DNA of 64,000 bases from assembly GCA_905178155.1 (NCBI GenBank), contig CAJINV010000001.1:1035326-1099325 (forward strand), in the 5' to 3' direction. Both the position numbers and the translations under genes were made by a program. Shown piece after piece: positions 1 through 64,000 of this stretch (the first letter of the stretch is position 1; the number at the start of each line of letters is the position of its first letter). Under the pieces are notes generated by a model, which ran no database searches, was not told the DNA's origin, and was given only the letters and a program-made list of their open reading frames with translations. Origin of the DNA: Amoebophrya sp. A120 (Eukaryota; Protista; Dinoflagellata).

Positions 1-3000
1 ACAAGATACTCTTCCTGTTTTCGTCGAGCGCCAGCTTGTTGATCTCCCGCGTGAGCTCCTCGATGGTTGCAGGTCTGTCAAGATCACTTCCACCTTCGGT
101 CTTCTCGCCGAGGACGCGGAATTCCGTCACTGGTGGGAGGGAATCAGGACTGTTGTCTATCTGCATAGAATTCATGTCGTCCGGCTGCTGCAAATAACCC
201 TGCTCCGGTGCGCCGCGGGTCTGCTCTGTCCACCGCCGCATATCGCTATCCACGTCGCTGCGGAACTTTTGACAGATGGTTTGCATCTCAGCCGAGAAGG
301 CCGCGCGCGCGCGCCGGCCGCAGCACGCCCGCGAACACACTTTCCGCGCCTGCGCGGCCAAGCCCTTCACCGCGGCGCTGCACAGGCTGGAGAGACTTTG
401 CTCCCAAATCAAATCGCAACCTTCAACCCGGACATTCCACTGGTCCGGCCGGCCGGTCTTCGCAAACACGCTGCCGCCCGTGAAAATGAATCCCAGGGGA
501 AAAAGCGTATGCGGGTTCACCAGGGCCGCGCTCTCCGCTCTTGCAGGACTTATTGATGTTGCCACGGTCGGATTTATATTTTCCTTGTTGGCAGGTGGTG
601 ACGATGTTGCGGACTGATAACTTCCTTCCCTCGTCGTGAGGTCGTTGTTTCCTTGCAAAAACCCGCGCTCAACTGCGGGCGAGGAAGCGGTTGCAGCAAA
701 ATTTGCCTGATCATCAACATGAACTACATCATCATCATCATCCCGAACAGCATCCACTGCCACTTTTGATGAAGAGGCGCCAAAATCATCATCCGCAGGA
801 GTATCAGCGCCGGCACTCGGCTCGGACACCTCCGTTGTCTCGGGCGACGGGTTTTGACTCAATTCCGGAGCATTATCGCCACGAGGACCGGGAGTTGTAT
901 TTTTACACGAAGATGGCACGTCCCTACAAGAGATCTCCTGTGGTTGTTCACAACTCGGAGTTGTAGATGACTCTCCGCTTGTCTTCAGGGCGGTGAACAT
1001 TTCCGGGGGTACTAGCCTGAGGTGCTTGGTGGTGGGGGTGGTGGAATAAAGGCTCAGATCCAGGTCCCGGCGGAGGTGCAGGTACTCCCGAAACCATTCG
1101 CCCGTACGCAGGTGGGCCCGATACTCTAAGCTCGCGGCGATGCGTTGCTTGGCGAACTCGTCATCGTCCGCTTCTATCTTAGCCCTTTGCGCCGCCGACG
1201 GGCGGTCCTTCGGCTCGCTCTTTGGCGAGGGCCAGTGTTCAGGGTCGCGCATCTCGCGCTCCACCGCCTCCGCCGCGGCTCGGAAAACCTTTTCCAGGTC
1301 ACGAATGCTGAGAAGTGCTGCGCGACCCGGGCCAGTATTCGCAGAGGTTTTACTATTTTTCCCCCCTACTGTTGATGTTGTCGCTCCGCCTGCTTCTGCT
1401 GGTTTTGTTGCCGAAGGGTTAGCATTTGATGCCTGTCCTCCTGACGATTGGTCGACCTGACGGTCCGGAACAAGCCGCAAATGCTCTACCAGCCGGGCCA
1501 AACTATTCCCCGGGCACCCGAGATGCTGGGACTTGGTGCTCGGAATGCTGTTCGTGTTCCCCCCGCCACGCACGATTTGCTCCGCGATCCACTGGCCGTC
1601 CTGTGTAATATCACAGAGAAAAAAGCTATAGTAGCAGGGCATATAATTTGTATTGCAAAAATGAATACACAGAAAAATTTGTCATGGGCGGCCCCATAGA
1701 ATGCTGGTTAAGATGAAAGATTTTTCTGTGTCTTCCTCTTCATTTACTTTTTTGCATTACAAATATAACCTGCCTGGTGCTTTTTTCTGCGTGATACGCG
1801 AGGGCCACTAGCCAAAAGAAGTACCGCCTTTCCCGCACATTCATCGCGATCGCGCGTTTCGTCCTGCGCCCCGCGAATTTCTGTTCCTCCTTCTTGCGCT
1901 TGCCCGCGGTCACCGGAGCAGCGGGGCTGAAGACCTCGTAGACACTCCGCAAACCGGGAACTTCGGAGAGAAATCGCTCTATCAGCGCGCGCTCGGCAAC
2001 CAAGTGATGCACCTGTAGAAGGATCGTCTGAAACAGAATCAGCATACTGCCGAGCAGATAACAGGCACTCCCCGTCATCGACCGCTCATCCACTAGGCTC
2101 GACAGTGCCGCTCCTGGCTGGTCGTTAATATTATTCGTTTCATCTCTACTACGTCCTCCGCCGCCGGGGGTCGTGACCGCTGGGACCGGACCCACACCCG
2201 CGTTCTTCGGTACCACCGCCCAATTGCGCTTTCCGTACTCGATGCCCGGCCCCAAGGAGATCACGTTCGTCGCACTGCGCTTGCGCAACAAGCGCAGCAC
2301 CGGAGCGAGCAACACCACGACAATGCTTTCCGCGGCCTGTAGCCCCCCGTGCGCGGCGAGGTCGAAGAACGTGGCGGCCGCCGGAGTTTGAGTTGATGCC
2401 CCCTCGCCTCCTCCTGCCCCCGCGAGTTCCCGCGACTCCGCGAAGTCGTATCCTGAGTAAAAACGTCCCCACCCCATAGTCAAGTTGGTAAATCTGCAAC
2501 ACAAATCTGCCAGGTTTGGGAGTTATGCATGACAAGTTTCCATCTGCAGTGTAGTGCTGGTTAGCAAGGGAAGCTGCATGAGAAAGCCACTTTCTCATCC
2601 TGTTTACAGCATTACAGATTCCAAAACACGATTGGGAATGCCTCTCGTAGAGCTGCGCATTACAAACATTCCTGTAATCGCAAATCTGCATGACAACTCT
2701 GGGGTGGGGATGTTTTTACGCAGGATAAGTCGGCGGCGATGCTTTGCGCGATCGGGCCCAGGTGGTGCGCGAAGCTGCTGCAGCCGCTATCCTATGTAAC
2801 AACGCCCCCACCCCAGAGTCAAGATGGGGAATCGGCTAGGCAAATCCACAGGTTTTGGCTGCTTTGCATGACACATTTGCACTCGTAGTGTACTACTGTT
2901 GTTTGAGGTAGTTCAGCAGCATCACAACTCTGGTATATCATGCTGATTGGAGCATGACAAATTTCAAAACAGGGCTAGCTACCGCTTCTCATGGGGCTGC

Positions 3001-6000
3001 TCATGAGAAACATTTTCAGCATGCAGATTTGAATTACAAGTGGGGACGTTTTCCAATACGATACCCGCCGAGCTGACTGTTCGTGGCCGTGGCGAGCCAG
3101 TTCCAAGCCACGACCCGGTGATCGGATCCCTGGAGCTATCAAATGCAAATATGTCTGGGGCTGGGAGATTGCAGGACTTGTCATGCAGGTTTTCCATGAC
3201 CAAGGACATCTGGAATGCGGGGCCTAGCATGACAGATTCTTTGGTGTCTCTATCATGCCTATCCTGCATGAAAAACTCCCTCTTTCTTAACTTGGCCGAA
3301 AGTGGACAGCTTTTGGCACTCATGCAACACAGATTTTTGCATGCTTCAGATTTAGCATGACAAGCTGCATCTTTCCTGACCCAGACGTATTTTCATTTAA
3401 TAGGAGCAGGCTGGTGATCGCCCCCTCCGCCCCGCGGTGCTCCCTCAGCGCGGCCTCCGCGCTCTCCCTTAGCTGCGGTGGTACAACGTCTGCTGCGAGG
3501 ACTGCTGCTGCGTCACGACTCTCCTCTTTTGCACTTCCACCCGCTCCTCCGGTTGTTCGCAAGGCAACAAACGGGTTGCGTTCTTCGTCGTCCGCGGGCC
3601 ACGCTTCGCGGAACAGGGGCACCTTCGCGGGCCCGGGCAGCGACAGTGAGGCCAGCGCGTGCATCATTCCAGAGTGACACCTATGGATTGCAAATATGTC
3701 TGGTCTGAAAGGATGGAACTTGTGATGCTGCATTTGGATTCTACAATGAATCCGTATTGCATGAACAGCAAAAGAGGTCCGATTTTTGCTATGCGGAGAG
3801 GGCATTTCTTCATGCGGTATGAGCATCAGAAAGCCCTCGCAGAATCTCTGGTGCTAGGGCAGGCATCACAGACCCTATGGGTCAAGGTCATGCACAATCT
3901 GCATGACAAACTCCTGCATTCTTCCAGACCCAGACATTTTTGCAACACATAACACCGTCCGCGGCCGTACCGCGAAAACAAAATCCGTCTCTCCCGCACC
4001 CCCAGACTCTCGGCAAATTCCGGCCACACGCCCTGCTGCACCTTGGCGAGCCACTGCAGCTCGTCTATGTGGCCTTTCAGATCGTCATGCTTCAGGTCGT
4101 GATGTTGTTCAGAATTCTCCTGATCATGTGGTGGAAAAGTCTGATGCTTATGATTTTCCGCCCCGACACTGGTGCTCAAATCCGTCCAATTTTGGAACTG
4201 TCGTCCCTCATCTTCCGGCCCGGCGAACGAAAACGCTTGCGCCAAAGTGACGCGAAAGGCGGCCAACGCCTCCACGACGTTGTCCCGGTGCCACGGGAGC
4301 AGGAGGTTCTTGTTACCGCTACTGTTTATTTCATCGTCTGTGAGTAGTTCTTGCACCGGAAAAAATTTTTCCGCTCTAGAAGAAACATCAGGGCCCTGGA
4401 GATGATGAGACGTGGATTTATTTTCCTCGTCAGGAACTGCAACGTCGCTCTCAAGACGCCTTTTCTTGTTAGCCCTGCTGACCAGGAGCCCCGTGTGGTG
4501 CAGGAACGCGTTGCTGCGGCGCAACAGCGCGCGTCGGTCCGCGGGCGTTGCGTCGCGGAGAAACGCCTTGGTAAAAGCATCGACGGTGTCCTCTTCGTCG
4601 CCTTGTAGCTCCAAGAGACGGCGAAGCACCACCCAAATCAGCAGCCGCGCGTTCCCCAGCATGTTGCTCTCATTCGCCACCTGCTTCGCACGCTCGTTGC
4701 CCTGCTGGCCGGTCGCGGCCTCCGTCGCCTGGATACCAAAATGAAAAATCCCCCCTCCCCATATTGAAACGGAAACTTCTGTTGCTGGATTTGTGTAAGT
4801 ACGCAAATCAGCCCTGTCTTGCAGCGAGGCACTGCAGGCAAAGCCTCAGCCTGCGTAGGGGTGTTTTGTTGTAGGCGCTTGGCATAGGAGAGGCCTGCCA
4901 TGTAGGTGAAACAGCATTACAAATCGCCTCCATAAGGCGGTGGATTCTTTGGGTTTGCCTTTTTGCAAGACAGATGTGATTTGTGACCTCAAATCCGCAA
5001 CACAACTTTTTGGAAACATACCTTTTCGATATGGGGAGGGGGGATTTTTCCTTGCAATACTGGAGGATCTGTCGCTTCTGGTCCTCCACCGTGGCCATGG
5101 TTTCCAGGAGCCCCATATCGAATGCAAATGTGTCTGGGTCTGGGAGATTGCAACCTGTCATGCTAAATTTGAATCATGCAAAAATCTGTGTTGCTTGAGT
5201 GCCAAAAGCAGTCCACTTTCGACGAAGTTGGGACGGCGCTTCTCATGCAGGAGAGGCATGACACAGACATCACAGAGTCTGTCATGCTTGGTCCCGCATT
5301 CCAGACCTCATGGATCATGGAAGACCTGCATGACAAGTTTACGCTCTTCCAGACCCAGACATATTTGCAATGCATACCCCACCCCGGCGTACAAAAAGTG
5401 CGTCGCGTGCGCCACGTACCGATCTGCGAGTTGCTATCCTGAGCAAAAACGTCCCCGATCCCAGAGTTGTTTATACAGATCTGCAGGCTTAAAATGTCTC
5501 TCATGCGAAGCCTCATAAGACACATTTTCTAGTGGTCTTTATTTGAGATAGTAATTTGCAATGCTCGAAAGATAAGCATGGTAAGCTAGATCTGCGATGC
5601 TGCTGCACTTGCTAAGCCCAAATTTGTCATGCGCAACTAGCTTGGTGATTTGTCTAGCAGATTTCCCATCTTGACTCTGGCGAGGTGGGGACGTTTTTAC
5701 CTATGATAGCTGCACCAACCCCTGGCTTAGGCCGCCGAACGGGCCCACGTCGCCCCAGTTTTTTGCAGTCACGTCCATCATGGCACCGCACAACAGCTGC
5801 TCGTTGTGGCTGCGCTGCAAGCTGGACAGCACGCAGACCCGCAGAAAAAACCGCAGCGTCGGCAAAACCCGCTCGGCCAAGTGCCGTCGACAAGAGACGG
5901 AAACAGCCCAAGGGTCCGCTGCTGTGCTGCTTCGCGCACCAGCTGCAGGACCACTCTGAGTCTGGCCTGTCGGCGGTGCAGGAGGACCCGCTCCTGTGCC

Positions 6001-8936: not shown

Positions 8937-10442
8937 TTAACGCCCGGGAACGCGCTTGGCGCCCTGTGAAGCTCCCGCTACGACGGTTTTCTTCCCGCAG
9001 CTTCCCATGCTACCCGCACCCCGTCTCGTCCCGCGAGCGTCGGCAGAACCGCCACCAATTGTGTGTATGTTCGCCTGTCCCGGCGTGCACGTCGCAGGTG
9101 GCAAGTCGCACTCTTTGTCCTTCCCCACGACCCGCCGGGCCTTCTCTACGCGCTCCCGTTGTTCGTCCGTCATAGTGCTCTTGCCGACGTCCTCCAGGCG
9201 ACGTGCGGTTGTGCCTATGAATTGCAAAAATGTTTGGGTCTGGAAGATTGAAGCTTGTCATGCTAAAACCAAATCATGCAAAAATCTGTGTTGCATGACT
9301 GCCAAAAGCTGTCCTCTTTCGACCAAGTTGGGTGGGAGTTTCTCATGCAGGATAGGCATGGCAGAGACCTCGCAGACTCTGTCATGCTAGGTCCTGCATT
9401 CCAAACCTCATGGGACATGGAAAATATGCATAAGAAGTTTGCACTCTTCCAGACCCAGACATATTTCCATTTGATAGTGCCCTGGCTCTGTCGGTACGCC
9501 GCCGTGGTGTTCCGCAGCGTGCTGCTGGACGAGGCTGCGGATGCGCGTCCGGCAGCTGCTGGTTGTGGCACAATATCAGCCAGTGTCTTCACGTTATTTC
9601 TATTTTTCATCCCGTCACCCGCAACCTTAGGCTTTTCCGATCCGCGGGCCGCGTTCAACGCGGCGTTGTCACCTGACGAATCACGAGAAAATGCGCGAAA
9701 CACACATTCAGGATCAAGCGAAACTCCGTTTCAAGGTAGGGAACCCTTAATATCAGGCAGCGCTAGTGGCGATTTTCGTAGCAGTACTAGAGGGAGCCAC
9801 CCTACAACCTATTGCAGAAGCAGCACAAGATAAATATCGAACGATACGAGGTCGTTGGGACGCGGGTGGGACTCTCTCCCTCGCATTCGCCCGTCGAACT
9901 TCCCCTTCCGCGCTGTGGTGCGCCCCGTACAGCGACGAGAGCTCTCCGCGCACAGTGGCGGCGACCGTGCTACTACCGTCATCAGCGCCCGCTGCGCTTC
10001 CCCTTGTGGCGGTTCTCCCGCTGTTTGCCACGGCCCGGCGGCTCTCCTCCACCGATACCGCTGCGCGGCCCGCAGAGGGCGTGAAGCCGACGGCACCTGC
10101 TTTCTGCAGCCGGTTCGAATGCACTGTCTGGCCCGTCCCGAGCACGCGCGCGCCTTCCCGGATGCGCGTCGGTGCTGTTGGAGGTGTTGCTCCCTGAGCG
10201 CTGGACACCGCACCAGCATTCCCTTTCGATTCAACAATCGCCCCCGGTGCGCGTTTTTGCCCAGACGCTGTCAGTATTTCCGGAACTACTTTGCTCCGCG
10301 AACCATGAGTTGCCTGCTGTACTGACGGGCCTTCGCTTGCGCCTCCAGTTGTAGGTAGTTCTGTTGCCTCCTTGTTCCCATAGCAGGCAGAATTCAGCAG
10401 CTTTGCCAGGCGCGCCTCTCGATCTAGCATTCCTGTCGGCAT
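8937..10442 (-). CDS. Low-complexity Ala/Ser/Gly/Arg-rich hypothetical protein
   Basis: ORFs 9753-10490, 9263-9703 and 8937-9227; the last two join in frame (SQGT-TARR) after removing the 9216 element; junction near 9750 unresolved. Confidence 0.5.
9216..9476. mobile_element. TIR introner family A
   Basis: A-type TIRs; DR GTGCC/GTGCC. Confidence 0.9.
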
Positions 10443-11453: not shown

Positions 11454-14400
11454 TTACGCCCCCGGGGTCATCTTCAGGCCCAAACTGGTCATGTACTCTG
11501 ACAGCGCATCCTTGGCCTTCTTGAGGTTGTCGATCTCCTCTGCGAATGAAGCACAAAAACCTTTGGGTGGTCTTCTGAAGAGGACAAAGGACAAACCACT
11601 ACCAAGGTCATCTTCTTGATCTTTTCATCTGTTGCTATTTCGACGCATGTTCTCCTTGCATAAGTAGCTCCTCTCTTTTTTTCGGCTTCTCCTTACTTCA
11701 TGCCCACTTCCAATACAGCTTCATCACAATATATTAGTTACAACGCAGTAGTACCTCTAGCTCGATAAAAACTTCGGACGTGGAAGATTTTTTGTCCTCC
11801 AAAGAACTACCCAAAGAAGTTTTTTTCCCTATTTTCCGGGCCTCCATGCGGCTGGCGTACATGGACTTGTAGTCCTTGCACTTGGCGTCATCACCCGTAA
11901 CCACCTTGACCATGGTGGCCTTCGTGGTGTCCAGATCGGATTGCACGACGCGGAGGTCATCCGACTTGGACAGCGATTTTGCCGTGTTGTCCTTGAACCC
12001 GAGTTTGTTGCGCTTCTCGATGAGCTGCAACCGCTTCAAGTTCGTCTGGTGGTCTTCCTCTTCGTTCTCGATCGCGGCGCCCAGCTCCTTCTCCACGCGC
12101 TCGCTCTCCGTCATGGCGTATCAGAATGAAAACCCCCCCTACCCATATCAAAACGAAGGCTCTGACGCTGGCTTTGCGTACACAAATCAGATCTGTCTTG
12201 CTGGCGAGGACTGCAGAGCCATGCTGAGCCTGAGTAGACAGGTTTTGACCCAGGCACTGAGCATGGCAGACGTCTGCGCTTCAGGCGCAACAGCATGACA
12301 AACCGCCTGTAGAATGCGGCGGAGCCTGTGGAGTTGCCTTCATGCAACATAGAGACGATTTGTGGTCACAAATCAGCAACACAAATTTTCGAAAACGTGC
12401 CTTGTATATATGGGGAGGGCGGGTTTTCCTTTTGATATGGCGGCCTGGTACTTTTCAATCACCTTGTCCACCTCGTTCAGCACGATCTCACCGCCGGACT
12501 CCGTGCGGCCCTTGAACACGTTGGTGAGGGCGATCTTGGCCTGCTCCAAATTGCCGAAATCCTCTTTCAGCTGCTCCTGCTCCACCTTATTGGCGTCCAA
12601 ATCCTGCGTCAGTTGGTCGTGCGCCTTCACGTTGTCCTCCACCGCCTTGTTAATGTCCGTTGTCGCCTGTTCTGCCTTGTCCTTGTGCGAGGACGCGGTG
12701 TTGTCCAGAGCCTCAATGGCCTGCTCCAGCTCCTCCTTCGTGGTCTCAAGATCCTGAATGCGCAGGGTGAGCTCGTTGTCCTTCTGCTGGCACCAGGTCT
12801 TGGAGAAAAATGGAAACGAAAAATCCGAAAGCGATTGTGAACAGCCTGTCTTTTTCTTGATCGTGTCCATGTGCGAGTTTCAGCTCGTGACACCAAAAAT
12901 ATTATTGCATGACAGTTTATTGTCCGGGTCTTTCGACAACCTGAAAGCGCAAAAACGGGGGTAAGTTGTACTTTGGCAGTAGAAGGGGACTTCTTGTTGT
13001 TTACCGCAATAGAAAAAAGCCGCTTTTTGTTCGCTTGGATTGTGCAAGGATAACTTCTGGTCCTCTTCCTGTTGCTTGTACATAGTGTCGGACAATTTGT
13101 CGATCTCGGAGGCGATCTTTGCAAAAGCATCGGCAGCACCTGCAAAGGAAAGAATGTTAATGTTGCAATAAACATGTTCTTGTTGCCGGTTTTTGATTTC
13201 TACACTGGTGCCCGCGCATCTAAACCGACAGATAAAAGCGACCAGATTATCCAAAAATACCGTACAACTCTTTCAAAGCTTCGAATGGCGACATCAATTC
13301 CTAAACTTACTCCTACTACCTGGCTTCTGGTCCAGGGCCAGCTTGAGCATCTCGGCCGCGCGGCTCTTTCCGGACATCGTGGCGAGGAGGTCCAGCACCA
13401 CCTTATTCGGGGCGCTCCGCATCTGCAGGAACCCCGGCACTACGGTCTTTTGCTGCAGCAGAATCGTTTTCTCAGCCTGCAACAACGCGGCCGCGGCGGA
13501 GGGCTTGCCCAGAATGTCCAACGCGGCGGACAGAGCCTTCACGCGGTTGTCCGCGTCCTCGATCTCGCCCTCCAACGCCATGCGCTTCTCCGCGCAGGAA
13601 GCCGTCTTCGCCTTTTTCGACGCCTTTTCCGCATTCAGATTGGAGATCGCGTCCGCCTTGGCCTTCTTGGCCGCGTCCAGCTTTTCGCCCTCGTTGCTCA
13701 AAAAGATGGTCAGCTCCTGAATCGCCCCGTCGTGCGCTTCAATCTGCAGCTGCATCGTCGTCTGTGCCTCCGCGTGAAATTTCTCGCCCATGGTGATGTC
13801 CTGAGAGAGAGATGAAGCATATGGATATTTATAAATTTACTGCGCTCAAAATAAAGCGCAACTCCAACTTCTTTATTTCAAGATTGCAAGGGCATCTTCA
13901 AAGGTCGTGGCATCGGAGTTCAGAAGAACATACAATATGTACTTCAAAACACATTTTTCTATACATCATCGAGTTTCTTCTGATCTTCGAGCATCTTGTC
14001 GCGCAGCAGCGACATGGTGGACGCCAATTTGGACTTGGTCGAGTCGGCGAGCGTTGTGTCCGCCTTGATCTTCGTCATGGCGTCGTCCAGTCCTTTCGTG
14101 GCCCCCTGGAGCTGCCCCATGTCGTAGCCCATGCGGGCCTTCGTCTTTTCGTAGGTGGCCTGCGCCCCGGCTTTGCTGGTCTCGGCAGCATCCTTCAGCT
14201 GCTCTTCCTTCGCCTTCTTGGCCTCCGCGCCCTCAATGGCTTTCTGCGCATCCGCCTCCGCAGCCTCGGCTTCAGTCTAAAGAACAAGATGAAATTTAAA
14301 AATTTTTGGAAACATTTATTCCGCTGCTCCTGATCAACAGAAATGCGCCATACGATTAGAAGTAAAAAATGACTTCGGCTACATCTACAAACAACATCTG

Positions 14401-38075: not shown

Positions 38076-38080
38076 TGAGA

Positions 38081-52304: not shown

Positions 52305-55300
52305 TCAGCTGGACGCCGTGGACATGGCCACGCAAACGCCGTTCCTGGCTTTGTTGCGGCAGTCGTGGCCGTGCGGTAGGTCGTCTACGCAGTTGTGGTG
52401 TCCCGGGTTGGCGTATGCAATGCAAAAATGTCTGAGTCTGGAAGAATGCAGACTTGTCATGCATATTTTGTATGATGATTGATGTCTCTGATGCATGATC
52501 TAGCAACACAGATTTTTAGGGGGCTTCCTAATGCCTATTCCGCATGATAAATGCCCTCTCCGCGTAACACAAACTGGAGTCCTGTTGCTGGTCATGCAAA
52601 ACAAATAGATTTTTTTGGAATCCAAAGACAGCATTACAAGTTGCAACCTTCCAGACACAGACATTTTTGCAATCCATATGGCGCAAAACATCAAGTTTCC
52701 CGCGTCTTCCTCCCAGGGCGGGATGTAGCGTATGGAAGTGTCAGAATCGAAATTGACAAAATCGAAAAATTTCTGATGCACAAAATCGATGTCAGTTGGA
52801 GCCTCAGTTTTCAATTGGCGCATGACAAATTTCGGGAGTGCCCAAATCCAGTCTGTCATGCTGATTGGGCAAAGAAGACTCCGCCTGTAATGCTACTCTG
52901 GCAGCACATTGTATACCCCTAAACAGGCTCACAATCGGTCTCATTTGCCTGCTCCCCAATACAGGCCTTCAGTGCCCTGCATTTTATGCATCACAAATTT
53001 TTCGATTTTGTCGATTTCGATCCTGACACATCCATATAGCGCGCCCGGTGCGTATCCCGTGCAAAAACATCCCTGCCTCAAAGTCAAGTTGGTATTAAAT
53101 CTGCAACACAAATCTCCAAGTTAAGGGAATTGCGCATGACAAGTTCTTTCCATCTCCAGTGTAGTGCTGGTTAGCAAGGGCAGCCGTATGTTGAGAGAGC
53201 CATTTTCTCATCATATTAATTTGCAGCATTACAACTACCAAAACACGATTGGAAATGCCCCTCACGCAGAGGCGCATTACACATGTTCCTGTCATTGCGT
53301 ATTTGCATGACAACTCTGGGGCGGGGGCGTTTTTGCTGAGGATAGTGTGTGTAGATGCCCTCCCCGTACCACTCGCTGACGTTTCTCCCCGGGTGGTCCA
53401 TATCAAATGCAAATATGTTTGGGTCTGGAAACTTGTAATGCTGCGTTGGGAATAGTGAATGCTCTGTAATGCCCAGCCAAGCATGAGAAATATCTGCGCT
53501 TCGTTGTGTTGCGTTTTTCGCCTGACAAACTGCGTTTTTGCATGACTGACGAAAGGGTTTCTTCTTGGACACGCATCACAAACTTTTTGGCCATCCCAGA
53601 CAAGCATGACAAATCTCGCAATCTTCCAGACCCAGACATTTTTGCATTTGATAGTCCATCACTGGGAGCCACCGGCCCTCGATCTCCATTTCCCAGATGT
53701 CGGTGGGAAATTTCTCTGCGCGCTTGTTCAGCTCCAGAAGCTATCAACTGCAAAAATGTCTGGGTCTGGAAGAGCCGGCACTTGTCGTGCACATTTTGCA
53801 TGACCCGTGAGGTCTGTGATGCTGGTGCTAGCATCACAGATTTTTTGACAGCTTCTTGATGCCAATTACGCATCAGAAATGCCCTCTCCGCGTGCCAAGA
53901 ACTGACTCCTCTTGCTGCTCATGCAACACAGATATTTTTAGAATTCGCAGACAGCATTACAAGTTCCACTCTTCCAGACCCAGACATATTTGCAATCCAT
54001 AGCAGCAGGTAGTTGAACTTGTTCGCCTGCAGCAGGTATCCTGTGCAAAAGCAGCGCACTCGTATTGCGGTCATGCATTACAACTCTTTTTCTTCAGCAG
54101 GTAAGTCCGCATTACAAATTTTACTTATCACGCTGAGGAAATTTGTAATGCATTTATATTATAGACAATAGACACCCATAATAGCTCGTAGAACCCTGTC
54201 AGCTTCCACCAAGTGAAACATCAATGCATTTATATTACGAGTACGATACTTTTGCAGTTCATAGCAGGTAGCTCCGACCGCCCTCGTGCAGTCGCAGGTG
54301 GTAGCCGGCCTTCTCGATCCACGGGCGGAGCGACTATCAACTGTAAATCTGTCTGGGTCTGGGAGATTGCGATATTTGCCATGCAAGTCTGGTAATATGA
54401 CTCTGCAATCTGTATTGCGTGGCCGCGAAGACGCGCTCCTCTTGCCTATCATGCAAAAATGCACTTGCTCATGCGGAGTACGCAACTCACCACCACGGAA
54501 AAACTTGTCATGCTGGACAGCGCATCACAGAGTGCTCACTCTTCCCTTCCTTGCATCACAAGTTTCCAGACCCCCAGGGATATTTGCAATGGGTAGGGAC
54601 TCCAAACGGTCGAAACTGTCGTCGCGAATGTGAAAATCCACGTCCCCGTCCCAGTCGAGCATATTACAGTGAAAAATGCCCCCACCCTCAAAGTGTGATG
54701 CGAAGTTTCCAAATGACGCCTCTTTGTCATACATGAAAGGAGTATGAATCTTTCTGATGCAGAGTCTAGGCATTTATCGCATCGCTTGCATGACAAGCGC
54801 CGCTCTTGCTGGGGTCTTTTGCAATACAAATTTTTGCCATTCACGATTGGAAACCTGTGATGCTGATAGATGCAAGAGGGCGAATGTTTCATTTGGAAAG
54901 GTTTGCAATACAAATGCTCCCAAGTTCGAGGGTGGGGGCATTTTTCATTGTAATAGAGCAGGGCACCAAGTTTGAGGCCGCCGAGCAGGGCGCCGTCCGT
55001 GACGATATACTCGATCTGGTGCTCCTTGAACAAATTGTCGGCGAACACAACCAAGTCCCACAGCGTCCGCTTGCAGCAGGGGGGAATCGCCCACCCCTTG
55101 TAGAGCCAGTCCATGGGACAGTTCGGGGTGCGCAGCGTGCAGCCGTACTGGCGGAGTTCCCCGTATCCACAGAAAAAAAAAACCATTTGGCATGCAAAAC
55201 CTGCAGCAAGTCCAGTGTTTGTCATGCAAAACATGGATGCGGATGGTTTTTTTTCTGGGGATACCCCGTCGATCGTTTCGATCTCCTTCAGGTCATTCTT

Positions 55301-58300
55301 CTCCAAAAACTCTTTCACTTGGCGGTCCAACCCCGTTTGGCTGCCTTGCGGGAGCAGGTTTGGCGCCCAGTGCGCGAAACCCCGGCTCAAGCCGCTCCGG
55401 AACCAGAAGTCGACGTCGGCTTTCACCCCACTGTACAAGTGGCGCCACTCAAATCTCGGAACGAGTTGCAGCAGACCCTGCTTTATCAAATGCAAATATG
55501 TCTGGGTCTGGAAGGATGCAAGATCTGTCATGCTTGTCTGGCATGACTGAAGAGTTTGTGATGCGTGTCCAAGAAGAGACCCTGTTGCCTGTCATGCAAA
55601 GCCGCAGACTGTCATGCGGAAAGCGCAACACCAAGCAGCGCAAATATTTCTCACGCTTGGCTGTGCATTACAGAGAGTTCACTACTCACAACTCAGCATT
55701 ACAAGTTTCCAGACCCAGACATATTTGCAATCCATATGTTTCGAGTTCTCTGTTCTCCTCTTCCCGGGTGCATTTTTATTTTCATCGTTCTCCCTACTCT
55801 CCGTTGTACCTACTATTACGCCGGGGGCAGCTGCACGACCACCGCTCTCTTCTTTCACCACGCCGGCATGGGGATCAGAAATTGCGGAGTATTGAAAGGC
55901 CGGCATGGGGGTCAAATACCCGCCAACACACTGGGCAAACCCGTGCTCCTTTCGATCGTGCCACGAGTGGCGGAGGAACCAGTCCAACAGCGTCCACTCC
56001 CCATCCAGCGACACGCGGAAAGGCATGCCCTCGGTCAGCAGCCTCGTCCGAACCAGAAACGTCGGCGCCAGCGTGTCGCAGGTCTTGCAGCTCTGCAGCT
56101 CGTGCGCGAGAAAGGGTTCGTGGTAGCTGCGCACCGAATATCAAAAGCAAATTTACTTATGTCTGGGTCTGGAACAAGAGTGCAAGATTTGTCATGCATC
56201 TCACGCGGACCACGTACATGGTCTGGAATGCAAACAGAAGCATCACAGATTTTGCGAGACCTTCCGGATGCCGCTCCTGCATGAGAAATGCGCCTTTTGC
56301 CTACCAGCGAGTGGGTAGCTTGTGGCGTTCATGCAACGCAGACTTTTTTGTAGTCGAAATTTTGCATGACAAGTTGCAACTTTCCAGACCCAGACATATT
56401 TGCAATGCGTACCGAACTGCCGTGGCGGACGGCGCCATCCTCGTGCATGCTCACCCGGGTTTCCGGCGGCAGGAGCTCTGGGTGCATTTTGTCCCGTGGG
56501 ATGGTGTAGGACTCGTAGTTATCCTGAGCAAAAACGTCCCAACACGAAAGGCAAGATGGGAAATCTGCTAGACAAATCAACGTTTCGCATGACAAGTTTG
56601 CCCTCATAGTGTGATCCTGTTTCGCTAGTTCAGCAGCATCACAGGTCTAGCATATCATGCTGTTTCTAGCATCACAAACTCCAAAACACGACTAGAAACT
56701 ACTTCTCATGGGGCTCCGCATAAGAAACTTTTTTGGCATGCAGATTCGCATGACAACTCTGGGGTGGGGACGTTTTTGCTCAGCATAGTAGTTGCGGGAA
56801 AATTTCAAAACCCAGTGCTTCGCCTCCAATTTGTGGCAAAAATCGAGCACGCGCTTTCGGGACGTTGCGGAAACGGGGGAGGAGTAGGCTGATGTTGTAC
56901 CACTTTTAGAAGAACTCACACTACTTCTTGCACGAGGACCTCCAATGCTTTCTCTTTCATCTACGTGTTGTAGTTCCACCGGTGCCGAGAGGCCGGAGAA
57001 ACTCACGCCGCTGAGATATCCGTCGTCCTGCTCGAGCACGTGCAGTAGCCGCTGCAGGTCGTCGCGGCTGGGGACCAGCTCGGACGCCACGACGAGCGTG
57101 AACTCGGTTTCTACCCGCGCAGACAGGTAATTGAGCTTGGCGCCGAGGGAAAGTTGCCGTTCCTCTAGCGATTCGGGAAAGAGGAAATCGGGAGTGTTAT
57201 TGCGAGGAAAAATCCCCCCTCCCCATACCAAAAAGGGGCAGTACTGAAAATTTGCGATGCTGATTTGTGACCACAAATCGTCCCTGTATTGCAAGAGGGC
57301 AAAGCCAGACAATCCGCCGCGTTGCCCCGGCACTTTGTAATGCTGTATCGCATACAGATGATATGCCTGCCCTGCTAGGTGCCTACAGCAAAACGCCCCT
57401 ACTCAGGCGTTGCATCTGCCTGCAGTCCTCTACTGCTAGACAGATTGGATTTGCGTACACAAATCCAGCATCACAGATTTCCATTTTGATATGGGGTGGG
57501 GGGATTTTTCATTTTGATAGGTGTTTTTCTTGTTCTTTCCCCCTACTTCCAGCAAGTGCGAGAACGACACCGCGGAACTGGCGTCCGCGAAGGGCGCAAG
57601 GATGGTCACGGTATCAAATGTAAAAATGTCTGGGTCTGGAAACTTGTAATGCTGCGTTTGGAATAGTGAATGCTCTGTAATGCACAGCCAAGCATGAGAA
57701 ATATCTGCGCTTCTTTCTCTTTGTGTTGCGTTTTTCGCATGACAAACTGCGTTTTTGCATGACACGCAAAAGGGTCTCTTCTTGGACACGCATCACAAAC
57801 TTTTTAGTCATGCCAGACAAGCATGACAAGTCCCGCAATCTTCCACACCCAGACACTTTTGCAATCCATACACGGCGCCTTTTCGCAAACCACCTGCTGC
57901 GCCTTGTTGCCCAATCGACGTCCCCGCTCGCAGTTCTACTTCGTCCGGAGTGCGCCCCATCTTCTTGTCCGGAGGCGCAACACCGGAATCTCCGAAAATC
58001 GCCAGTTGATTGGCGATTCTTGGGGGCGGAAGCGCGGATACGGCGTGCAGGTTCTCCTTCTGGTAGGTGTCGTGGAGCAGTTCCAGGGCGTCCACGGTCT
58101 TCACGTGCCACTTGCTGTTGTCGAGCACGTAGCTCTTCTGCAAGGCCTCCCGAACCAGCCAGCGGTGCCGCAAATGGGCCGTCGTGTTGTGCGCCAGGGC
58201 GATGCTCGCCGCCTGCACGACGCCGTTGGGGCAGAGCATGTTCAGCTCGTGGTACCGGGTCTCGAACGCCATGTTATCAAGATGAAAAATCCCCCCTCCC

Positions 58301-59456
58301 CATATCAAAATGGAAACTTCTGATGCTAATTTGCGTACACCAATCCGACTTGTCTTGCAGTAAGGCACTGCGGCCGGATCCGCAGCCTAGGTGGGAGCGC
58401 GCAGGTCTAGTTGCTCAGCATTGCAAACGGCTACCCGCTGGGGCCAACAGCATGCCAAATCGCTTCCACAATTGGGCGGATGCCTCTGCACTTGTCTTCT
58501 TGCACGACAAACCTGATTTGTGGTCACAAATCAGAAACACAAATTTTCGGAAACATACTTTTTCAATATGGGGAGGGGGGATTTTTCCTCGCAATACATG
58601 GTCTCCGTAATCCAGGAGGACCACGCCACCGCCTCCGGGCCGCACAGCACGCGGAACTGCATCTCCTCGTAGCGGCACTTATCAACTGTAAAAATGTCTG
58701 GGTCTGGAAGAATTCATGTTTCTCATGCTTGTCTGGCATGACTCTTAAATCTGTCACGCACGTTGCCCAAGGGCTCCGTTTTTCTGTGATGCCGAAGCGC
58801 AGTTTGTCATGCAGAATAGGCAACACCTAGGAGCTCAGAAACTTGTCATGCTGAGCCGGCATCTATAGCCTCACCATGAGACGCCACCCAGCATCACAAG
58901 TTTCCAGACCCAGACATTTTTACATTTGATAGCACTGCTGCTGGAGCAGTGCGAAGTAGGCCGTCCAGTCGACCAGATCCAGTTCGGGGTGCCCGTATCA
59001 AATGCAAACATGTCTACTGGGTCTGGAAGATTCATCCGAGAGTTGTCATGCAGTTTTTGCTAGCTCCCTCAAATCTGGGGTGCGGGTCCTAGCATCACAG
59101 GTTCTGCTTCTGCAGCCCCTTCGTGAAGATGCCTGTTCTGAATGAGGAATATCCTCTCAGCATGGCCAAAAGTGAGCACCTGTTGCCAGTCATGCAACAC
59201 AAATCTACTTCGTACGATCCGCAAGTCGCATCACAAGTTCGGATCCTTCCAGACATCCAGGGATATTTGCACTGGATAGCCCGTCAAACGTGCACATAAT
59301 GGTGGACTCCATGCTCGTGTCCTTCTTCTTCTCCGTCGTTGTACCACCATGATTCTCCTGCGCGTGCGCTGGACGAAAATAAACGGTGTCAAAGTTGTAA
59401 AACACCAGGAGCAGACGAAAGAAACCGAAAACGAAGCAGAAACTACTGAAGACCAT
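52305..59456 (-). CDS. Fukutin-related (FKRP)/LicD-family phosphotransferase, 18 exons
   Basis: After removing 17 introners: IETIDGELRQYGCTLRTPNC...PPCCKRTLWDL...[26 protein letters not shown], matching the LicD/FKRP motif (PPCC...GG.LLGA.R....PWD.DVD); N-terminal signal/anchor; C-terminal CANPGHHNC. Confidence 0.85.
52414..52678. mobile_element. TIR introner family A
   Basis: DR TGGCG/TGGCG. Confidence 0.9.
52731..53036. mobile_element. TIR introner family G
   Basis: ~50-bp TIR TATGGAAGTGTCAGAATCGAAATTGACAAAATCGAAAAATTT; DR TAGCG. Confidence 0.9.
53053..53344. mobile_element. TIR introner family B
   Basis: DR GTGCG/GTGTG; similar to the 2449 copy. Confidence 0.88.
53401..53653. mobile_element. 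TIR introner family A (A2)
   Basis: DR GTCCA/GTCCA. Confidence 0.9.
53742..54001. mobile_element. TIR introner family A
   Basis: DR GAAGC/GCAGC. Confidence 0.88.
54037..54263. mobile_element. TIR introner family M
   Basis: TATCCTGTGCAAAAGCAGCGCACTCG...CGAGTACGATACTTTTGCAGTTCATA; DR GCAGG. Confidence 0.85.
54335..54595. mobile_element. TIR introner family A (A2)
   Basis: DR GCGAC/GGGAC; LES-LRPW restored. Confidence 0.85.
54662..54955. mobile_element. TIR introner family H
   Basis: TATTACAGTGAAAAATGCCCCCACCCTC...GAGGGTGGGGGCATTTTTCATTGTAATA; DR GAGCA; splits [11 protein letters not shown]. Confidence 0.92.
55164..55263. mobile_element. 100-bp mini TIR introner (family L)
   Basis: TATCCACAGAAAAAAAAAACCAT...ATGGTTTTTTTTCTGGGGATA; DR CCCCG. 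Confidence 0.85.
55484..55736. mobile_element. TIR introner family A (A2)
   Basis: DR TGCTT/TGTTT. Confidence 0.88.
56139..56411. mobile_element. TIR introner family A
   Basis: DR CCGAA/CCGAA. Confidence 0.88.
56520..56787. mobile_element. TIR introner family B
   Basis: DR GTAGT/GTAGT. Confidence 0.9.
57198..57519. mobile_element. TIR introner family C
   Basis: DR AGTGT/GGTGT; reverse orientation relative to the 4734 copy. Confidence 0.88.
57612..57870. mobile_element. TIR introner family A (A2)
   Basis: DR CACGG/CACGG. Confidence 0.9.
58275..58596. mobile_element. TIR introner family C
   Basis: DR CATGT/CATGG. Confidence 0.88.
58680..58931. mobile_element. TIR introner family A (A2)
   Basis: DR GCACT/GCACT; similar to the 41016 copy. 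Confidence 0.9.
58996..59278. mobile_element. TIR introner family A (diverged)
   Basis: DR GCCCG/GCCCG. Confidence 0.85.
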
Positions 59457-60945: not shown

Positions 60946-63900
60946 TCAAACTTTACTGTCGACGTAAGAGCGTTTTTGCAAAAACTCGTCCTCCTCGTCA
61001 TCGTCACTCGCTGAGTCCCGCTCCGACGGATCAAAATTGAACTCGTTTTCTTCCGGATCCCCCAGCTCCGCGAGCTCCGTTTGATGCTCCACCATCGGCG
61101 GGGGCGTCGGCGCATTCATGAAATTCAAAATCGAAATCCCCAAAATCAAGGAGATCAACCCGATGGTCACCATCTCCAGGACGTTGCTCTGTTATTTTTG
61201 TTTAGATCAGGTTTTTATTCGTCAATGTTGAAAGCGGAGCGGACATCACCTTTTGATGGATAGTTCGTTGTGTAGCTCTTAGAACGCTGCCAACTATAAA
61301 AAAAAATATCAAGAAAAAAAAACAGTAGCCCGCCGATTGTACCCCGCCCCCTGCCGGCTCCGGATTGCGCAGCAGCAAGTAGTCGCCGATGTAAACATTG
61401 TATGAGAATGCACAACTCACCCTCGTTCTCATTTCTCATGCAAAAGCCCAAATCCAGTTGTAGTTGCCTTGTATCACTATAAATGCATGACAAATTCCGG
61501 AAGCGATCCAACCAGTACTACATCAGGCACATAAATTTGCCATGCATAGGCTCCACGAAGTGTGCTGGTGTTTGTACTGCTGTTCATGCGATACATATGA
61601 GGAGGAGGGGGAGTTGTGCACTCTCCTACATTGCACACGGCACCGACAGCCTGTCCCAGCGTTCGGTACACTGAGCTCAACTGCTTGGTGATAATTCCGG
61701 CCATCCACATTTGAAAGCACTGCGCAAAAATCGGCACCAACAGTTTCCAGCACCAGCCTTTAAAGAAACCCCCCTCGTAGGGCGCAAGCACACCATTCAC
61801 AGCCACCGGAGTCTTGTAATACCTGCGGATTTATGTTCAAGTGTAATCTTTGCTTTGGACCTTTGAATCTGTGAAATCTCGTAAGTATTTCATTCGGAAC
61901 CACATCTTGCGGATAGCAGCATTAGTGCACTCGCATCGCCGTGTTAGCAGTTGTACTGCCGCAAGAACTACTGCGGCTGCATCCAGACGATACGAACAAA
62001 ATCTTCCGTTTTGACCGGAATTTCTAAAAAAACTAAAAGATTATTTGCCCGCCAAATTATTTAGCTTTACGCCTGCCCCATGTAGTTGTCCCTCCAACGG
62101 TCCGTCCACTCGCGTTTGCAGATCACGGGATCGCAGATGATCGGGCAGCTCTCTACCGGCCCCTCGTTCCCGGGCGAGTAAAGGCCGCGCATCAGATATC
62201 CTGAGCAAAAACGTCCCCGCCCCATAGTCAAGATGGGGAATCTGCTAGACAAATCAGCCAGCTTTGGTTGTTGCGCATGACAATTTTGGCCTCGTAGTGT
62301 AATCTTTTTTAGCTTGTTCAGCAGCATCACAGACCTAGCCTAATATGCTGATTGGAGCATTACAAATTCCACAACACGAAGAGAAAATGCCTTTCATGGG
62401 GCTCCGCATGAGAAACATTTTGAGCATGCAGATTTGCATGACAACTATGGGGTGGGGACGTTTTATTTACTCAGGATATCAGAAAAATCGTGCTCTGCTC
62501 CTCCATATCAAATGTAAAAATGTCTGGGTCTGGAAGATTGCAACTTGTCATGCTAAATCTGCAGCATGCAAAAATCTGTGTTGCGTGAGTACCAAAAGCT
62601 GCCCACTTTTGACCAAGTTGAGAGGGAGTTTCTCATGCAGGATAGGCATTAGAGAAGTGTCGCAGAATCTGTCATGCTAGGTCCTGCATTCCAGACCTCA
62701 TGGGTCATGGAAAAGCAGCATGACAAATCGCGCATTCTTCCAGACCCAGACATTTTTACATTTGATACTCCAGGGGAATGCGCGGCTGGGCATCGTCCTC
62801 GTCGTCGAGGCTTGCTATCGCAAGAAAAAACTGTTTCACTGTGAACTTGTGATGCAGAAAACGAAGCACAGAACTATTTGTCTTGCTACACATGCAAGAC
62901 AGTTGATTTTCAGCTGTGTTTTCCCTTAGGAAGCTTGCATGGCAACTTTTCTCTGTCATGTAGAACAAACTTGTGATGCAGAGCCTGCAAAACCCTTACA
63001 GTGAACCACTTTTTTCATATGATACTTGCTGGTGGCTGACTAGTACCAGGCCCGGTCCTGCTCGCCGGTAGAGGTTCAGGGTCGACTTGGTTGCCCGAAC
63101 TACCGTTGGGGGATGATGTTGTAGTACCTGGTTGCGAAGCTGAAGCGGACGAATAACTTGGCACGGCAAAGCGGTTCTTCAGATTTTCTAGACCCGAGTC
63201 GGTTTCGGGGATTACCAGTTGGTCCGGCTGGTCCACGTCTTGCCGCAGCTCTAGCAGGGCGTACAGCCCCTGGTCGCGTAGAATTTCCGCTACCTCCTGT
63301 CGCAAGGGGGCTTCGGCCTGCTCGCGCTGTGCCTCCGACGTCCACGCGGAATTTTCGTCTAGCCCGGCGCTTTTTACGCCGAGGACCGAATAGTTGGGAC
63401 TTATCTCGCGCTCGGCGATGCGGTCCTTCAGTAGCTCCCTCCCATAGTTCATCAGTCGCCACTTTCTGTCCAGATGCACCCAGCAGGTGTGTGTCGCGTC
63501 CTCCTCCACCCACTGGATGCCGCTCCCGTACACCGGCGTGCTGTCATGCCGGCCGACGATGGGTCCCGCGGCGACCGCGCGGGGGCTGCTCTCTTCGGGC
63601 GGGAGCACCGGGTAATTGTTTATGTTGTTGGAATCGTTTCCGTTTTCGTCACTGCTGCTGGGGGGAGACCTGTTTGCTCGTGGCGACAGCGGCAAGTGGC
63701 CGAAGGCCGTGTTGCTGCCGGACTTGGGCGTCGGGACGCGGCTGGGGTCTACGAAGACCGTGGGACGCAGGACTTTCTTCGCGCGAAACGTGTTGAAGCG
63801 ACAATATATCAAAAAGAAAAATCCCCCCTCCCCATATCGAAAACGAAATTTGTGATGCAGTATTTGAGGCGTGAGGCGTAACATGATCGCACTCGGAAGA

Positions 63901-64000
63901 GGTGGAACAGTCAGCAGCCCGAACTCATCGGTTTTGCCAGGTCCACAACCCCCTGGGGGTGAAATACGGGGGTGGCTCCGCGTGGCAGCGATCTAGGATC
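60946..64000 (-). CDS. Nucleotide-sugar transporter (SLC35A-like), 3' part
   Basis: GGFFKGWCWKLLVPIFAQCFQMWMAGIITKQLSSVYRTLGQAV matches the SLC35A GFF.GW...K..SS motif; further TM segment VTIGLISLILGISILNF; GT-AG introns plus F, A, B, D and C introners; 5' end off the window. Confidence 0.65.
61401..61628. mobile_element. TIR introner family D
   Basis: DR CATTG/CATTG. Confidence 0.88.
62197..62478. mobile_element. TIR introner family B
   Basis: DR TCAGA/TCAGA. Confidence 0.9.
62506..62767. mobile_element. TIR introner family A
   Basis: DR CTCCA/CTCCA. Confidence 0.9.
62816..63024. mobile_element. TIR introner family F
   Basis: TATCGCAAGAAAAAACTGTTTCACTGTG...CAGTGAACCACTTTTTTCATATGATA; DR CTTGC. 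Confidence 0.86.
63807..64000. mobile_element. TIR introner family C-like (truncated by the window end)
   Basis: Left TIR TATCAAAAAGAAAAATCCCCCCTCCCCATATC. Confidence 0.75.

What the first reader, a model, noticed from the sequence alone, without database searches (positions are those of the whole stretch)
2449..64000. Multi-family system of TA-bounded, TIR-flanked, 5-bp-direct-repeat elements acting as non-GT-AG introns
Seen: about 60 elements in about 14 families with unrelated TIRs share the architecture [5-bp DR]-TA-TIR...TIR-TA-[5-bp DR]. At nearly every coding junction I translated, deleting the element plus one DR copy gives a continuous, motif-correct protein (LicD, ankyrin, coiled-coil, HPR). 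Their ends are not GT-AG, and in the cases I checked sliding within the DR did not give GT-AG either, while ordinary GT-AG introns occur in the same genes. Established: Amoebophrya genomes are known to carry non-canonical introner elements with inverted and direct repeats, so the broad phenomenon is not new. Inference: one removal machinery, distinct from canonical U1/U2 splice-site rules, serves all families. To my knowledge that mechanism and the mobilising enzyme are unresolved.
Basis: partly seen in the sequence, partly recalled or inferred. Interest (0 to 1): 0.92.

Follow-up and report, generated by a model that had tools for sequence, protein, structure and literature searches.

The report
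Hairpin introns cut at fixed register
Dozens of small hairpin-ended transposon insertions in genes of the marine parasite Amoebophrya are cut cleanly out of its RNA without normal intron ends; this is already published, but every junction that could be placed here fits one fixed cut position, likely read by a relaxed spliceosome, which makes the unknown mechanism testable.

Summary
Real, and a published system. The window matches Amoebophrya sp. A120 (762/762 aa to an A120 protein). It holds 60 MITE-like elements, TAT...ATA with a strict 5-bp duplication (47 hits vs 0-4 in shuffles). Spliced-RNA contigs skip element+5 exactly (24 elements); RNA-guided A120 proteins or a contig boundary cover 17 more; a DNA run retains them. 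These are the A120 introner elements of Farhat 2021; Gozashti 2025 lists a Ginger-like A120 family with 5-bp TSD and TA/TA ends.

What I add, not found in my literature searches: where the duplication has mutated, 12 of 12 RNA junctions fit one register, exon|N-TAT...ATA-NNNN|exon (p=0.004), whereas Farhat call the border unknown. U at +2 is invariant in the transcribed orientation (282/282 vs 275/282 at the mirror end, p=0.016), and all 18 top non-canonical classes in Farhat's Table S4 have T at +2. No AG or branch signal was found. The families are not unrelated: they share a 10.4-bp-phased internal motif.

Best mechanism: hairpin-guided, relaxed U2/U6 spliceosome (about 50%); Euglena-like non-spliceosomal cut-and-ligate is the main rival (about 35%). 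No transposase found. The scan noted similar single introns in two other dinoflagellate genomes.

The parts
1609..1796 (-). singleton element, decayed repeat (2/5)
   Evidence: frame restoration only
2449..2727 (-). family B element, repeat 5/5
   Evidence: frame restoration only
2788..3063 (-). family B element, 4/5
3137..3402 (-). family A element, 5/5
3682..3951 (-). family A element, 5/5; can slide to GT-AG
4734..5059 (-). family C element, 5/5
5116..5376 (-). family A element, 5/5
5435..5708 (-). family B element, 4/5
9216..9476 (-). family A element, 5/5
12119..12437 (-). family C element, 5/5
15956..16209 (-). divergent family A element, 4/5
19570..19852 (-). family B element; RNA joint, register 0-1
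19924..20179 (-). singleton; RNA joint, register 0-4
20710..20988 (-). divergent family A element; RNA joint
22012..22269 (-). singleton, repeat 3/5; RNA joint, register 1-2
22325..22563 (-). singleton in window (13 relatives in loci); RNA joint
22829..23035 (-). singleton, repeat 1/5; RNA joint, register 1-2
23551..23811 (-). family A element; absent from annotated protein P0001
23874..24184 (-). family C element; absent from P0001
26666..26964 (-). family A element, 3/5; register 1-3 from contig arithmetic
27950..28263 (-). family A element, 4/5; absent from P0121
28318..28549 (-). family F element; absent from P0121
29404..29560 (-). singleton, 4/5; register <=4
29632..29943 (-). family E element, 4/5; absent from P0121
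30339..30603 (-). family A element; register <=2
30654..30874 (-). family D element; absent from P0121
30930..31257 (-). family A element; absent from P0121
31463..33106 (-). 1644-bp family B element swollen by a 481-bp tandem unit; register <=1
33481..33687 (-). family D element; register <=3
33757..34020 (-). family A element; register <=1
34623..34896 (-). family A element; register 0-1
37034..37344 (-). family C element; absent from P0121
37405..37670 (-). family A element; absent from P0121
37698..37887 (-). family D element; absent from P0121
38081..38312 (-). family D element upstream of the annotated start; RNA piece stops at its edge
   Evidence: boundary only
41016..41267 (-). family A element, 3' end ATC
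41378..41633 (-). singleton in window (6 relatives in loci)
43693..44010 (-). family E element, left boundary uncertain
49524..49838 (.). family C element; host strand not settled (model called +, margin 3.1)
52414..52678 (-). family A element; RNA joint
52731..53036 (-). singleton in window (19 relatives in loci); RNA joint around an 11-nt micro-exon
53053..53344 (-). family B element; RNA joint, register <=3
53401..53653 (-). family A element; RNA joint
53742..54001 (-). family A element; RNA joint, register <=1
54037..54263 (-). singleton; RNA joint
54335..54595 (-). family A element; RNA joint, register <=1
54662..54955 (-). family E element; RNA joint
55164..55263 (-). 100-bp singleton; RNA joint
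55484..55736 (-). family A element; RNA joint, register 0-2
56139..56411 (-). family A element; RNA joint
56520..56787 (-). family B element; RNA joint
57198..57519 (-). family C element; register >=1 from contig arithmetic
57612..57870 (-). family A element; RNA joint
58275..58596 (-). family C element; register 0-4 from contig arithmetic
58680..58931 (-). family A element; RNA joint
58996..59278 (-). family A element; RNA joint
61401..61628 (-). family F element, 5' end TAG
62197..62478 (-). family B element
62506..62767 (-). family A element
62816..63024 (-). family D element
19330..24230 (-). host gene: 762-aa coiled-coil protein (A120 P0001), 8 elements + 2 GT-AG introns
26420..38080 (-). 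host gene: 1155-aa ankyrin-repeat protein (A120 P0121), 15 elements in the coding part + GT-AG introns
52306..59330 (-). host gene with 17 elements and no GT-AG intron needed; continuous ORF after removal

Best explanation
These are the Amoebophrya A120 introner elements: short non-coding DNA transposons with TAT...ATA inverted ends and a 5-bp target duplication that are cut out of the RNA, at a register that fits exon|N-TAT...ATA-NNNN|exon wherever it could be placed, likely by a relaxed major spliceosome guided by the predicted end-to-end hairpin. Step by step. (1) Insertion (inferred): a Ginger/retroviral-type DDE integrase acting in trans inserts the element in either orientation and duplicates 5 bp; a shared internal motif phased at the DNA helical repeat is probably its, or a chromatin protein's, binding site. 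(2) Transcript (shown by folding prediction): the inverted ends pair into a long stem, the same in both orientations. (3) Cutting (shown by RNA contigs): the 5' cut lies 1 nt before TAT and the 3' cut 4 nt after ATA; 1+4 equals the 5-bp duplication, so the original coding sequence is restored whatever the site. (4) Recognition (inferred): the stem replaces U1/U2AF-type boundary finding and pairs each 5' end with its own 3' end; the donor N-UAU keeps the +2/+3/+4 letters of the gene's own GUAU donors for the U6/U5 catalytic core, while G+1, the terminal AG and a branch consensus are no longer required. That steps 2-3 happen at RNA level at one register: about 0.9. That the catalyst is the spliceosome: about 0.5. 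That the mobiliser is Ginger-like: about 0.55.
For: Identity: 100% match to A120 proteins; A120 end motif as described in PMC7789003. Removal: 21 elements in listed RNA-contig joints and 3 by contig arithmetic, each skip = element+5; same contigs skip GT-AG introns; DNA run X1 runs unbroken through 19813-22388 and 22536-23575. Register: 12 of 12 informative RNA junctions fit register 1, only 8 fit 0 or 2; chance of a common register under independent uniform registers 0.004; 5 further junctions in the RNA-guided A120 protein agree, and at 29404, 30339, 33757 and 34623 the retained letter gives the residue of the A25 orthologue. Donor likeness: U+2 in 282/282 transcribed 5' ends vs 275/282 at the mirror end (p=0.016); 6 of 9 canonical donors of the window begin GTAT/GTAC after correcting two typed boundaries, 5 of them GTAT; all 9 top A120 and all 9 top A25 non-canonical classes in Farhat Table S4 have T at +2, and A25 ends start TTA-RR. 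U2, U4, U5, U6 present, U1 not found in A120. Tunicate precedent for a spliceosome handling non-GT-AG introns. Stem: median z -6.3, terminal stem in 54 of 58. Both orientations used, 128 vs 107. Mobiliser: A120 fam38 classed Ginger, '5-bp TSD, TA/TA termini'.
Against: No 3' signal: AG at -2/-1 in 14 of 218 perfect-repeat elements (flank rate 7%), YTRAY equally frequent in used and unused ends (134 vs 134 of 282), no position in the first 40 nt with a clear 3'-role constraint. G+1 only mildly raised (103/282 vs 29.7%, p=0.013; 77/218, p=0.075, with a similar C excess at the mirror position). Donor and any branch point are buried in a strong stem. The U+2 asymmetry rests on 7 events (4 in the unbiased loci alone, p=0.125); one of the 7 (43693) has an uncertain boundary, and 49524 was left out and would be a counter-example if its gene is on the + strand. 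Euglena's stem-bounded introns have a similar offset geometry and leave as circles, which their authors read as non-spliceosomal. Only 4 junctions exclude register 0. Contigs show the major form only; no lariat or circle data (raw-read runs X9-X11 did not cover the genes). No transposase in the window, in 115 ORFs from related loci or in four longer copies; Farhat found none in A120, and the Gozashti main text says fam38 lacks Ginger homology and termini.
Confidence: 0.5

Rival explanations
1. Same elements and same register, but removal is by a spliceosome-independent, structure-guided endonuclease/ligase that measures 1 and 4 nt from the stem base and releases a circle, convergent with euglenid nonconventional introns.
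For: No AG, branch or polypyrimidine signal; strong terminal stem; no hybrid element/GT-AG junction among the 23 intron-type joints listed; Euglena geometry 3 nt 5' and 5 nt 3' of the stem, circular products reported; U1 not found in A120.
Against: Orientation-dependent U+2 and the NT/TT bias in two strains with different TIR families match spliceosomal donors; no such enzyme is known; the geometry is not the bulge-helix-bulge of tRNA endonucleases (recalled).
Confidence: 0.35
2. The RNA element is itself catalytic or is excised by an element-encoded factor (degenerate group II/III-like intron).
For: Group III introns keep only 5'-NUNNG and a 3' stem; here +2 is U and an A lies at -7 (279/282).
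Against: +5 is G in only 105/282; sizes 100-1644 nt with unrelated interiors; works in both orientations; no Rfam match; A-7 shows no role-dependent constraint.
Confidence: 0.05
3. The skips are not splicing: reverse-transcriptase template switching across hairpins at direct repeats, or DNA-level excision like TA-bounded ciliate IESs.
For: Hairpin plus short direct repeat is the classic setting for template switching (recalled); X3/X5/X6 are only guessed to be RNA; not all DNA-run joints were listed.
Against: Removal is exact where the repeat has decayed to 1/5-3/5 (22829, 22012, 31463) and at one register; the spliced form carries the depth (1091 in X3); retention would break the frame in 57 of 60; orthologues align without gaps across junctions; the DNA run keeps the elements.
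Confidence: 0.03
4. Mobilisation is by a tyrosine recombinase using 5-bp overlap (coupling) sequences, so the repeats are not target duplications.
For: Many repeats are imperfect; no DDE transposase found.
Against: Repeats are perfect in 243/319; mismatches spread evenly over the five positions (14, 16, 13, 17, 13) as expected from decay; the retained copy holds the orthologue's residue.
Confidence: 0.05

Closest known systems
Amoebophrya A120 introner elements / non-canonical introns (Farhat et al. 2021, PMC7789003)
   Same: Same organism (100% protein identity); inverted repeats starting TAT, ~7 variable nt, then >=3 A; 3-5-nt direct repeats (Fig. S19 legend: 5 bp); ~240-260 nt; coexisting GT-AG introns; many families.
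   Different: The paper reports 'no clear splicing signature', splice sites 'variable' relative to the hairpin and border 'unknown', and rules out general transposase mobilisation. Here: one register, invariant U+2, strict 5-bp duplication, shared phased internal motif.
A120 family 38 Ginger-like introner (Gozashti et al. 2025, PMC12130899, supplement file 8)
   Same: 5-bp TSD, TA/TA termini, TIR DNA element acting as intron.
   Different: ~810 bp with Copia/Gypsy-like ORF homology; the window's elements carry no such ORF, and I could not compare sequences with fam38.
Euglenid nonconventional introns (Nomura-type code in PMC12501133; review PMC11282704)
   Same: TIR stem closes the intron, slidable direct repeats, no GT-AG, MITE origin proposed, 3' overhang longer than 5' overhang; register found from non-slidable cases.
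   Different: Euglena: CAG at +4..6 pairs with CTG at -8..-6 (3 and 5 nt overhang); here TAT at +2..4 pairs with ATA at -7..-5 (1 and 4 nt). Unrelated lineage.
Fritillaria borealis non-canonical introns (PMC13326754)
   Same: MITE-derived, escape GT-AG, coexist with canonical introns.
   Different: Keep preferred end dinucleotides and U1, and use duplicated U2AF; here ends are free except U+2 and U1 was not found.
Introners of Micromonas, Aureococcus, Polarella/Symbiodinium
   Same: Non-autonomous TIR transposons whose duplication is removed by splicing.
   Different: They supply or co-opt G(T/C/A) and AG; these do not (5 of 282 read GT-AG at the register).

Membership tests
Amoebophrya A120 introner elements | Host is Amoebophrya A120 | tested here: met
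   762/762 aa to A120 P0001; P0121 peptides found across 15 junctions
Amoebophrya A120 introner elements | Terminal inverted repeat starting TAT, then variable nt, then an A run | tested here: met
Amoebophrya A120 introner elements | 3-5-nt direct repeat at the exon/intron boundary | tested here: met
   strictly 5 nt
Amoebophrya A120 introner elements | Removed from RNA with non-GT-AG ends; repeated families | tested here: met
MITE / non-autonomous TIR DNA transposon | Short, TIR-bounded, constant-length target duplication, no coding capacity, dispersed copies | tested here: met
MITE / non-autonomous TIR DNA transposon | Empty-site allele or cognate autonomous element | tested here: inconclusive
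   no whole genome held; none in 543 kb of loci; orthologue residues consistent with duplication
Ginger / integrase-type DNA transposons | 4-6-bp TSD (recalled) | tested here: met
   5 bp
Ginger / integrase-type DNA transposons | TGT...ACA termini (recalled) | tested here: not met
   TAT at 608 of 638 ends, TGT at 5
Ginger / integrase-type DNA transposons | Gypsy-like DDE integrase in a cognate element | not testable with these tools
   no genome; fam38 sequence not available
U2-type spliceosomal intron | GT/GC at 5' and AG at 3' | tested here: not met
   5 of 282 at register, 13 of 282 with sliding
U2-type spliceosomal intron | U at +2, donor-like +3/+4 | tested here: met
   282/282, 280/282, 275/282; role-dependent only for +2
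U2-type spliceosomal intron | Branch-point consensus near the 3' end | tested here: not met
   no role-dependent signal
U2-type spliceosomal intron | Lariat product, snRNP dependence | not testable with these tools
   only assembled contigs covered the genes; raw runs gave no exon coverage
Euglenid nonconventional intron | End-to-end stem with offset cuts | tested here: met
Euglenid nonconventional intron | CAG at +4..6 / CTG at -8..-6 | tested here: not met
Euglenid nonconventional intron | Excised as full-length circle | not testable with these tools
   no raw reads of this strain
Group III intron | 5'-NUNNG and pseudo-domain VI | tested here: not met
   G at +5 in 105/282

The most novel reading that the evidence does not exclude
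Probability: 0.6. Interest if true: 0.8.

Novelty: already known. Interest (0 to 1): 0.5.

Why it matters
The elements are published, so the finding as written is not new. The refinement matters because the splicing mechanism of some 30,000 A120 introns is open and the paper left the cut sites undefined. A fixed register gives exact predicted sequences for lariat or circle junctions, a one-line re-annotation rule, and a reason why such elements are tolerated (cut offsets sum to the duplication length). The U+2 link and the absence of any 3' signal separate the two candidate machineries in a testable way, and would show how far boundary recognition can be handed from snRNAs and U2AF to RNA structure.

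Tried and rejected
No whole genome was held, so no genome-wide search for an autonomous element. No RNA holder was listed as RNA on record; X3, X5, X6 are guessed RNA. Raw RNA runs X10 and X11 laid 0 reads and X9 had no exon coverage: no test of lariats, circles or minor junctions. Family A end pattern: 0 hits in viral contigs. Four longer TIR-bounded copies in the loci (457-834 bp) and 115 of 184 locus ORFs of 220 aa or more (duplicates and part of the shortest left out) gave no transposase, integrase or recombinase Pfam hit. Drift of old elements towards GT: suggested by 5 of 7 window cases, not supported in the loci (1 of 6). Branch A at -7: no role-dependent conservation. A 10-bp ladder of element lengths: not significant (p 0.14-0.64). 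Mutation direction as an independent register test: uninformative. A free combinatorial fit of the ankyrin transcript length gave 18 solutions and was dropped; the constrained fit gave one. Search for the annotated protein of the gene at 1-7300 found nothing within 453-2000 aa, so its three informative repeats are untested. Rfam: no match. LicD and HPR labels: no Pfam support on single exons. Two canonical intron boundaries typed (21398-21626, 35177-35339) were off by a few bases; donors were read from the printed context.
Full report
Observation. The architecture is real. A scan for TA-bounded segments with inverted ends and a 5-bp flanking repeat found 47 in the window against 0-4 in 20 block-wise shuffles. 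BLAST extension and a relaxed scan plus one long element give 60 elements covering 17.2 kb; the ends are TAT and ATA in 55 of 60 each, and the 5-mers match fully in 34 and at 4 of 5 positions in 21. Among 59 of them BLAST gives 16-17 clusters: A (24-25), B (7), C (7), D (5), E (3), F (2) and singletons. The families are not unrelated: all start TAT, run 6-8 variable bases into an A run, and share an internal motif GCAT(G/C/T)A(C/G)A (193 hits in 15.6 kb of elements, 25 in the other 48.4 kb).

An independent set. A pattern scan of metagenome contigs returned 154 loci (543 kb) of one unnamed assembly carrying the same families at up to 97.7% identity; whether it is the same strain is unknown. 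There 319 elements were located from TIR positions 4-30 only. The repeat is perfect at length 5 in 243 and at background for lengths 2-4 and 6-9; TAT stands at 608 of 638 ends. So the repeat is a strict 5-bp duplication, and mismatches are spread evenly over its five positions, as decay of a target duplication predicts.

Organism. A window exon matches an Amoebophrya sp. A120 protein at 100%, and the transcript built from RNA joints plus two register-based removals reproduces it 762/762; the A25 orthologue aligns without gaps across three element junctions. A second A120 protein, an ankyrin-repeat protein, contains the junction peptides of 15 elements.

Removal from RNA. No listed holder is on record as RNA, but contigs of X3, X5 and X6 skip GT-AG introns and so are spliced RNA. 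They skip six elements in 19.5-23.1 kb and all 17 in the gene at 52.3-59.3 kb (15 in listed joints, two by contig arithmetic), plus 26666 by arithmetic; each skip equals element length + 5. An 11-nt micro-exon between two elements is kept. DNA run X1 runs unbroken through several elements, though not all its joints were listed. With the annotated proteins and one contig boundary, 41 of 60 elements have RNA or RNA-guided support; the other 19 rest on frame restoration. Retention would break the frame in 57 of 60.

The register. Where the two 5-mers differ, the RNA shows which letter is kept. Counting how many bases of the left copy stay (plus strand; genes are on the minus strand), 12 of 12 informative junctions allow 1, only 8 allow 0 or 2, and independent random registers would share a value with probability 0.004. 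Four junctions exclude 0 and four exclude 2 or more; family A has both bounds. The annotated ankyrin protein adds five compatible junctions, two of them excluding 2 or more, and at four sites the kept letter gives the orthologue's residue. In transcript sense the intron is N-TAT...ATA-NNNN. The offsets add up to the duplication, which is why the coding sequence is restored exactly. Perfect-repeat elements cannot be placed, and contigs show only the major form.

What the ends require. With a strand caller that was right for 49 of 49 window elements at the margin used, 224 locus and 58 window elements were oriented (49524 left out as ambiguous; loci needed at least 3 of 5 repeat matches). Both orientations are used (128 vs 107). 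The first T of the element, intron +2, is invariant at the transcribed 5' end (282/282) but altered in 7 of 282 at the mirror end (p=0.016; 0 vs 4 in loci alone, p=0.125). No other position shows a clear role-dependent constraint; AG at the 3' end is at background (14/218), YTRAY is equally common at used and unused ends, and G at +1 is only mildly raised. Canonical donors in the same genes are mostly GTAT (5 of 9). Farhat's Table S4 supports the +2 rule without noting it: all nine top A120 classes are NT-NN and all nine top A25 classes TT-NN, and A25 repeats start TTA plus two purines. The ends are predicted to pair in 54 of 58 (median z -6.3 on 12 shuffles each).

Mechanism. I favour a relaxed major spliceosome (0.5): the stem finds and pairs the boundaries, the N-UAU donor still fits the U6/U5 core (structural detail recalled), U2/U4/U5/U6 are present and U1 was not found, and tunicates give a precedent. 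The main rival (0.35) is a structure-guided non-spliceosomal enzyme as proposed for Euglena, where a similar stem with 3 and 5 nt overhangs defines the cuts and a circle is released; the lack of any 3' signal favours it. Template switching and DNA excision are rejected by exact removal at decayed repeats, depth, frame and the DNA run. For movement, the strict 5-bp duplication, common ends and a shared motif phased at 10.4 bp (p=0.003, jitter null over 6-16 bp, families not fully independent; an end-anchored version gave p=0.05) point to one DNA transposase in trans. Gozashti's table classes A120 fam38 as Ginger with '5-bp TSD, TA/TA Termini', while their text says it lacks Ginger homology and termini. 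I found no transposase.

What is known. The system is described in PMC7789003 (seen: abstract, passages, sections 10-12 and 16, supplement legends and Table S4 rows; figures, including the logos of Fig. 3 and S19-S25, not visible and could already show part of the register). PMC12130899: passages and 38 of 58 A120 rows of supplement file 8; files 13-14 not searched. PMC12005148, PMC11282704, PMC12621601, PMC3534033, bioRxiv 2020.10.14.339549: passages. PMC12501133: passages and sections 5, 12. PMC13326754: abstract and first part of the Discussion. Roy 2023 and Henriet 2019 were not seen. Searches found no paper stating a fixed register or a +2 rule for Amoebophrya; the library lacks most subscription papers. 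Two earlier notes of this scan describe single similar introns in other dinoflagellate genomes; I did not test them.

Verdict. Already known as a system; the fixed register, the U+2 constraint and the phased shared motif are refinements that make the open mechanism directly testable. Interest 0.5.

Noticed in passing
window 31463-33106: A family B element grown to 1644 bp by 2.6 copies of a 481-bp unit with (CAT)n runs is still removed at the same register; a 457-bp relative with the same insert lies at L029:5314-5770.
   Followed up: yes
all families; e.g. family A positions 47, 132, 171, 213: Shared motif GCAT(G/C/T)A(C/G)A spaced mostly 31-33, 39-42, 49-52 bp apart, best period 10.4 bp; suggests a DNA-binding protein on one helix face.
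   Followed up: partly
window 42084-43692: A 1.6-kb stretch bounded by its own inverted repeat, with a 109-bp tandem array and a 136-bp palindrome, abuts element 43693-44010; removal of that element exposes a GT donor 1-2 bases away. Nested insertion or inverted-repeat-bounded canonical intron; unresolved.
   Followed up: partly
window 63807-63869: 63 bp of family C end followed by unique sequence to the window edge; its partner end may lie beyond the window, so it could be a longer copy.
   Followed up: no
window 53042-53052: An 11-nt micro-exon between two elements is kept in the RNA contigs.
   Followed up: yes
run X9 on window 23561-23635 and 37671: A raw RNA run with no reads on the exons holds about 90 reads from one family A-like copy (90-95% alike) at another locus: a related family in another strain or organism, retained in RNA.
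   Followed up: no
junction phases in loci: By the coding model, one frame position holds 110 of 224 junctions against 58 and 56, hinting at an insertion-phase bias.
   Followed up: no
whole window: All genes called lie on the minus strand (58 of 59 element contexts), in line with the unidirectional gene clusters reported for Amoebophrya; RNA contigs run about 1.7 kb past the ankyrin gene's stop (24675-26420), a long 3' UTR.
   Followed up: no
window 50062-50251: A 14-bp tandem array (12 copies) in an intergenic stretch.
   Followed up: no
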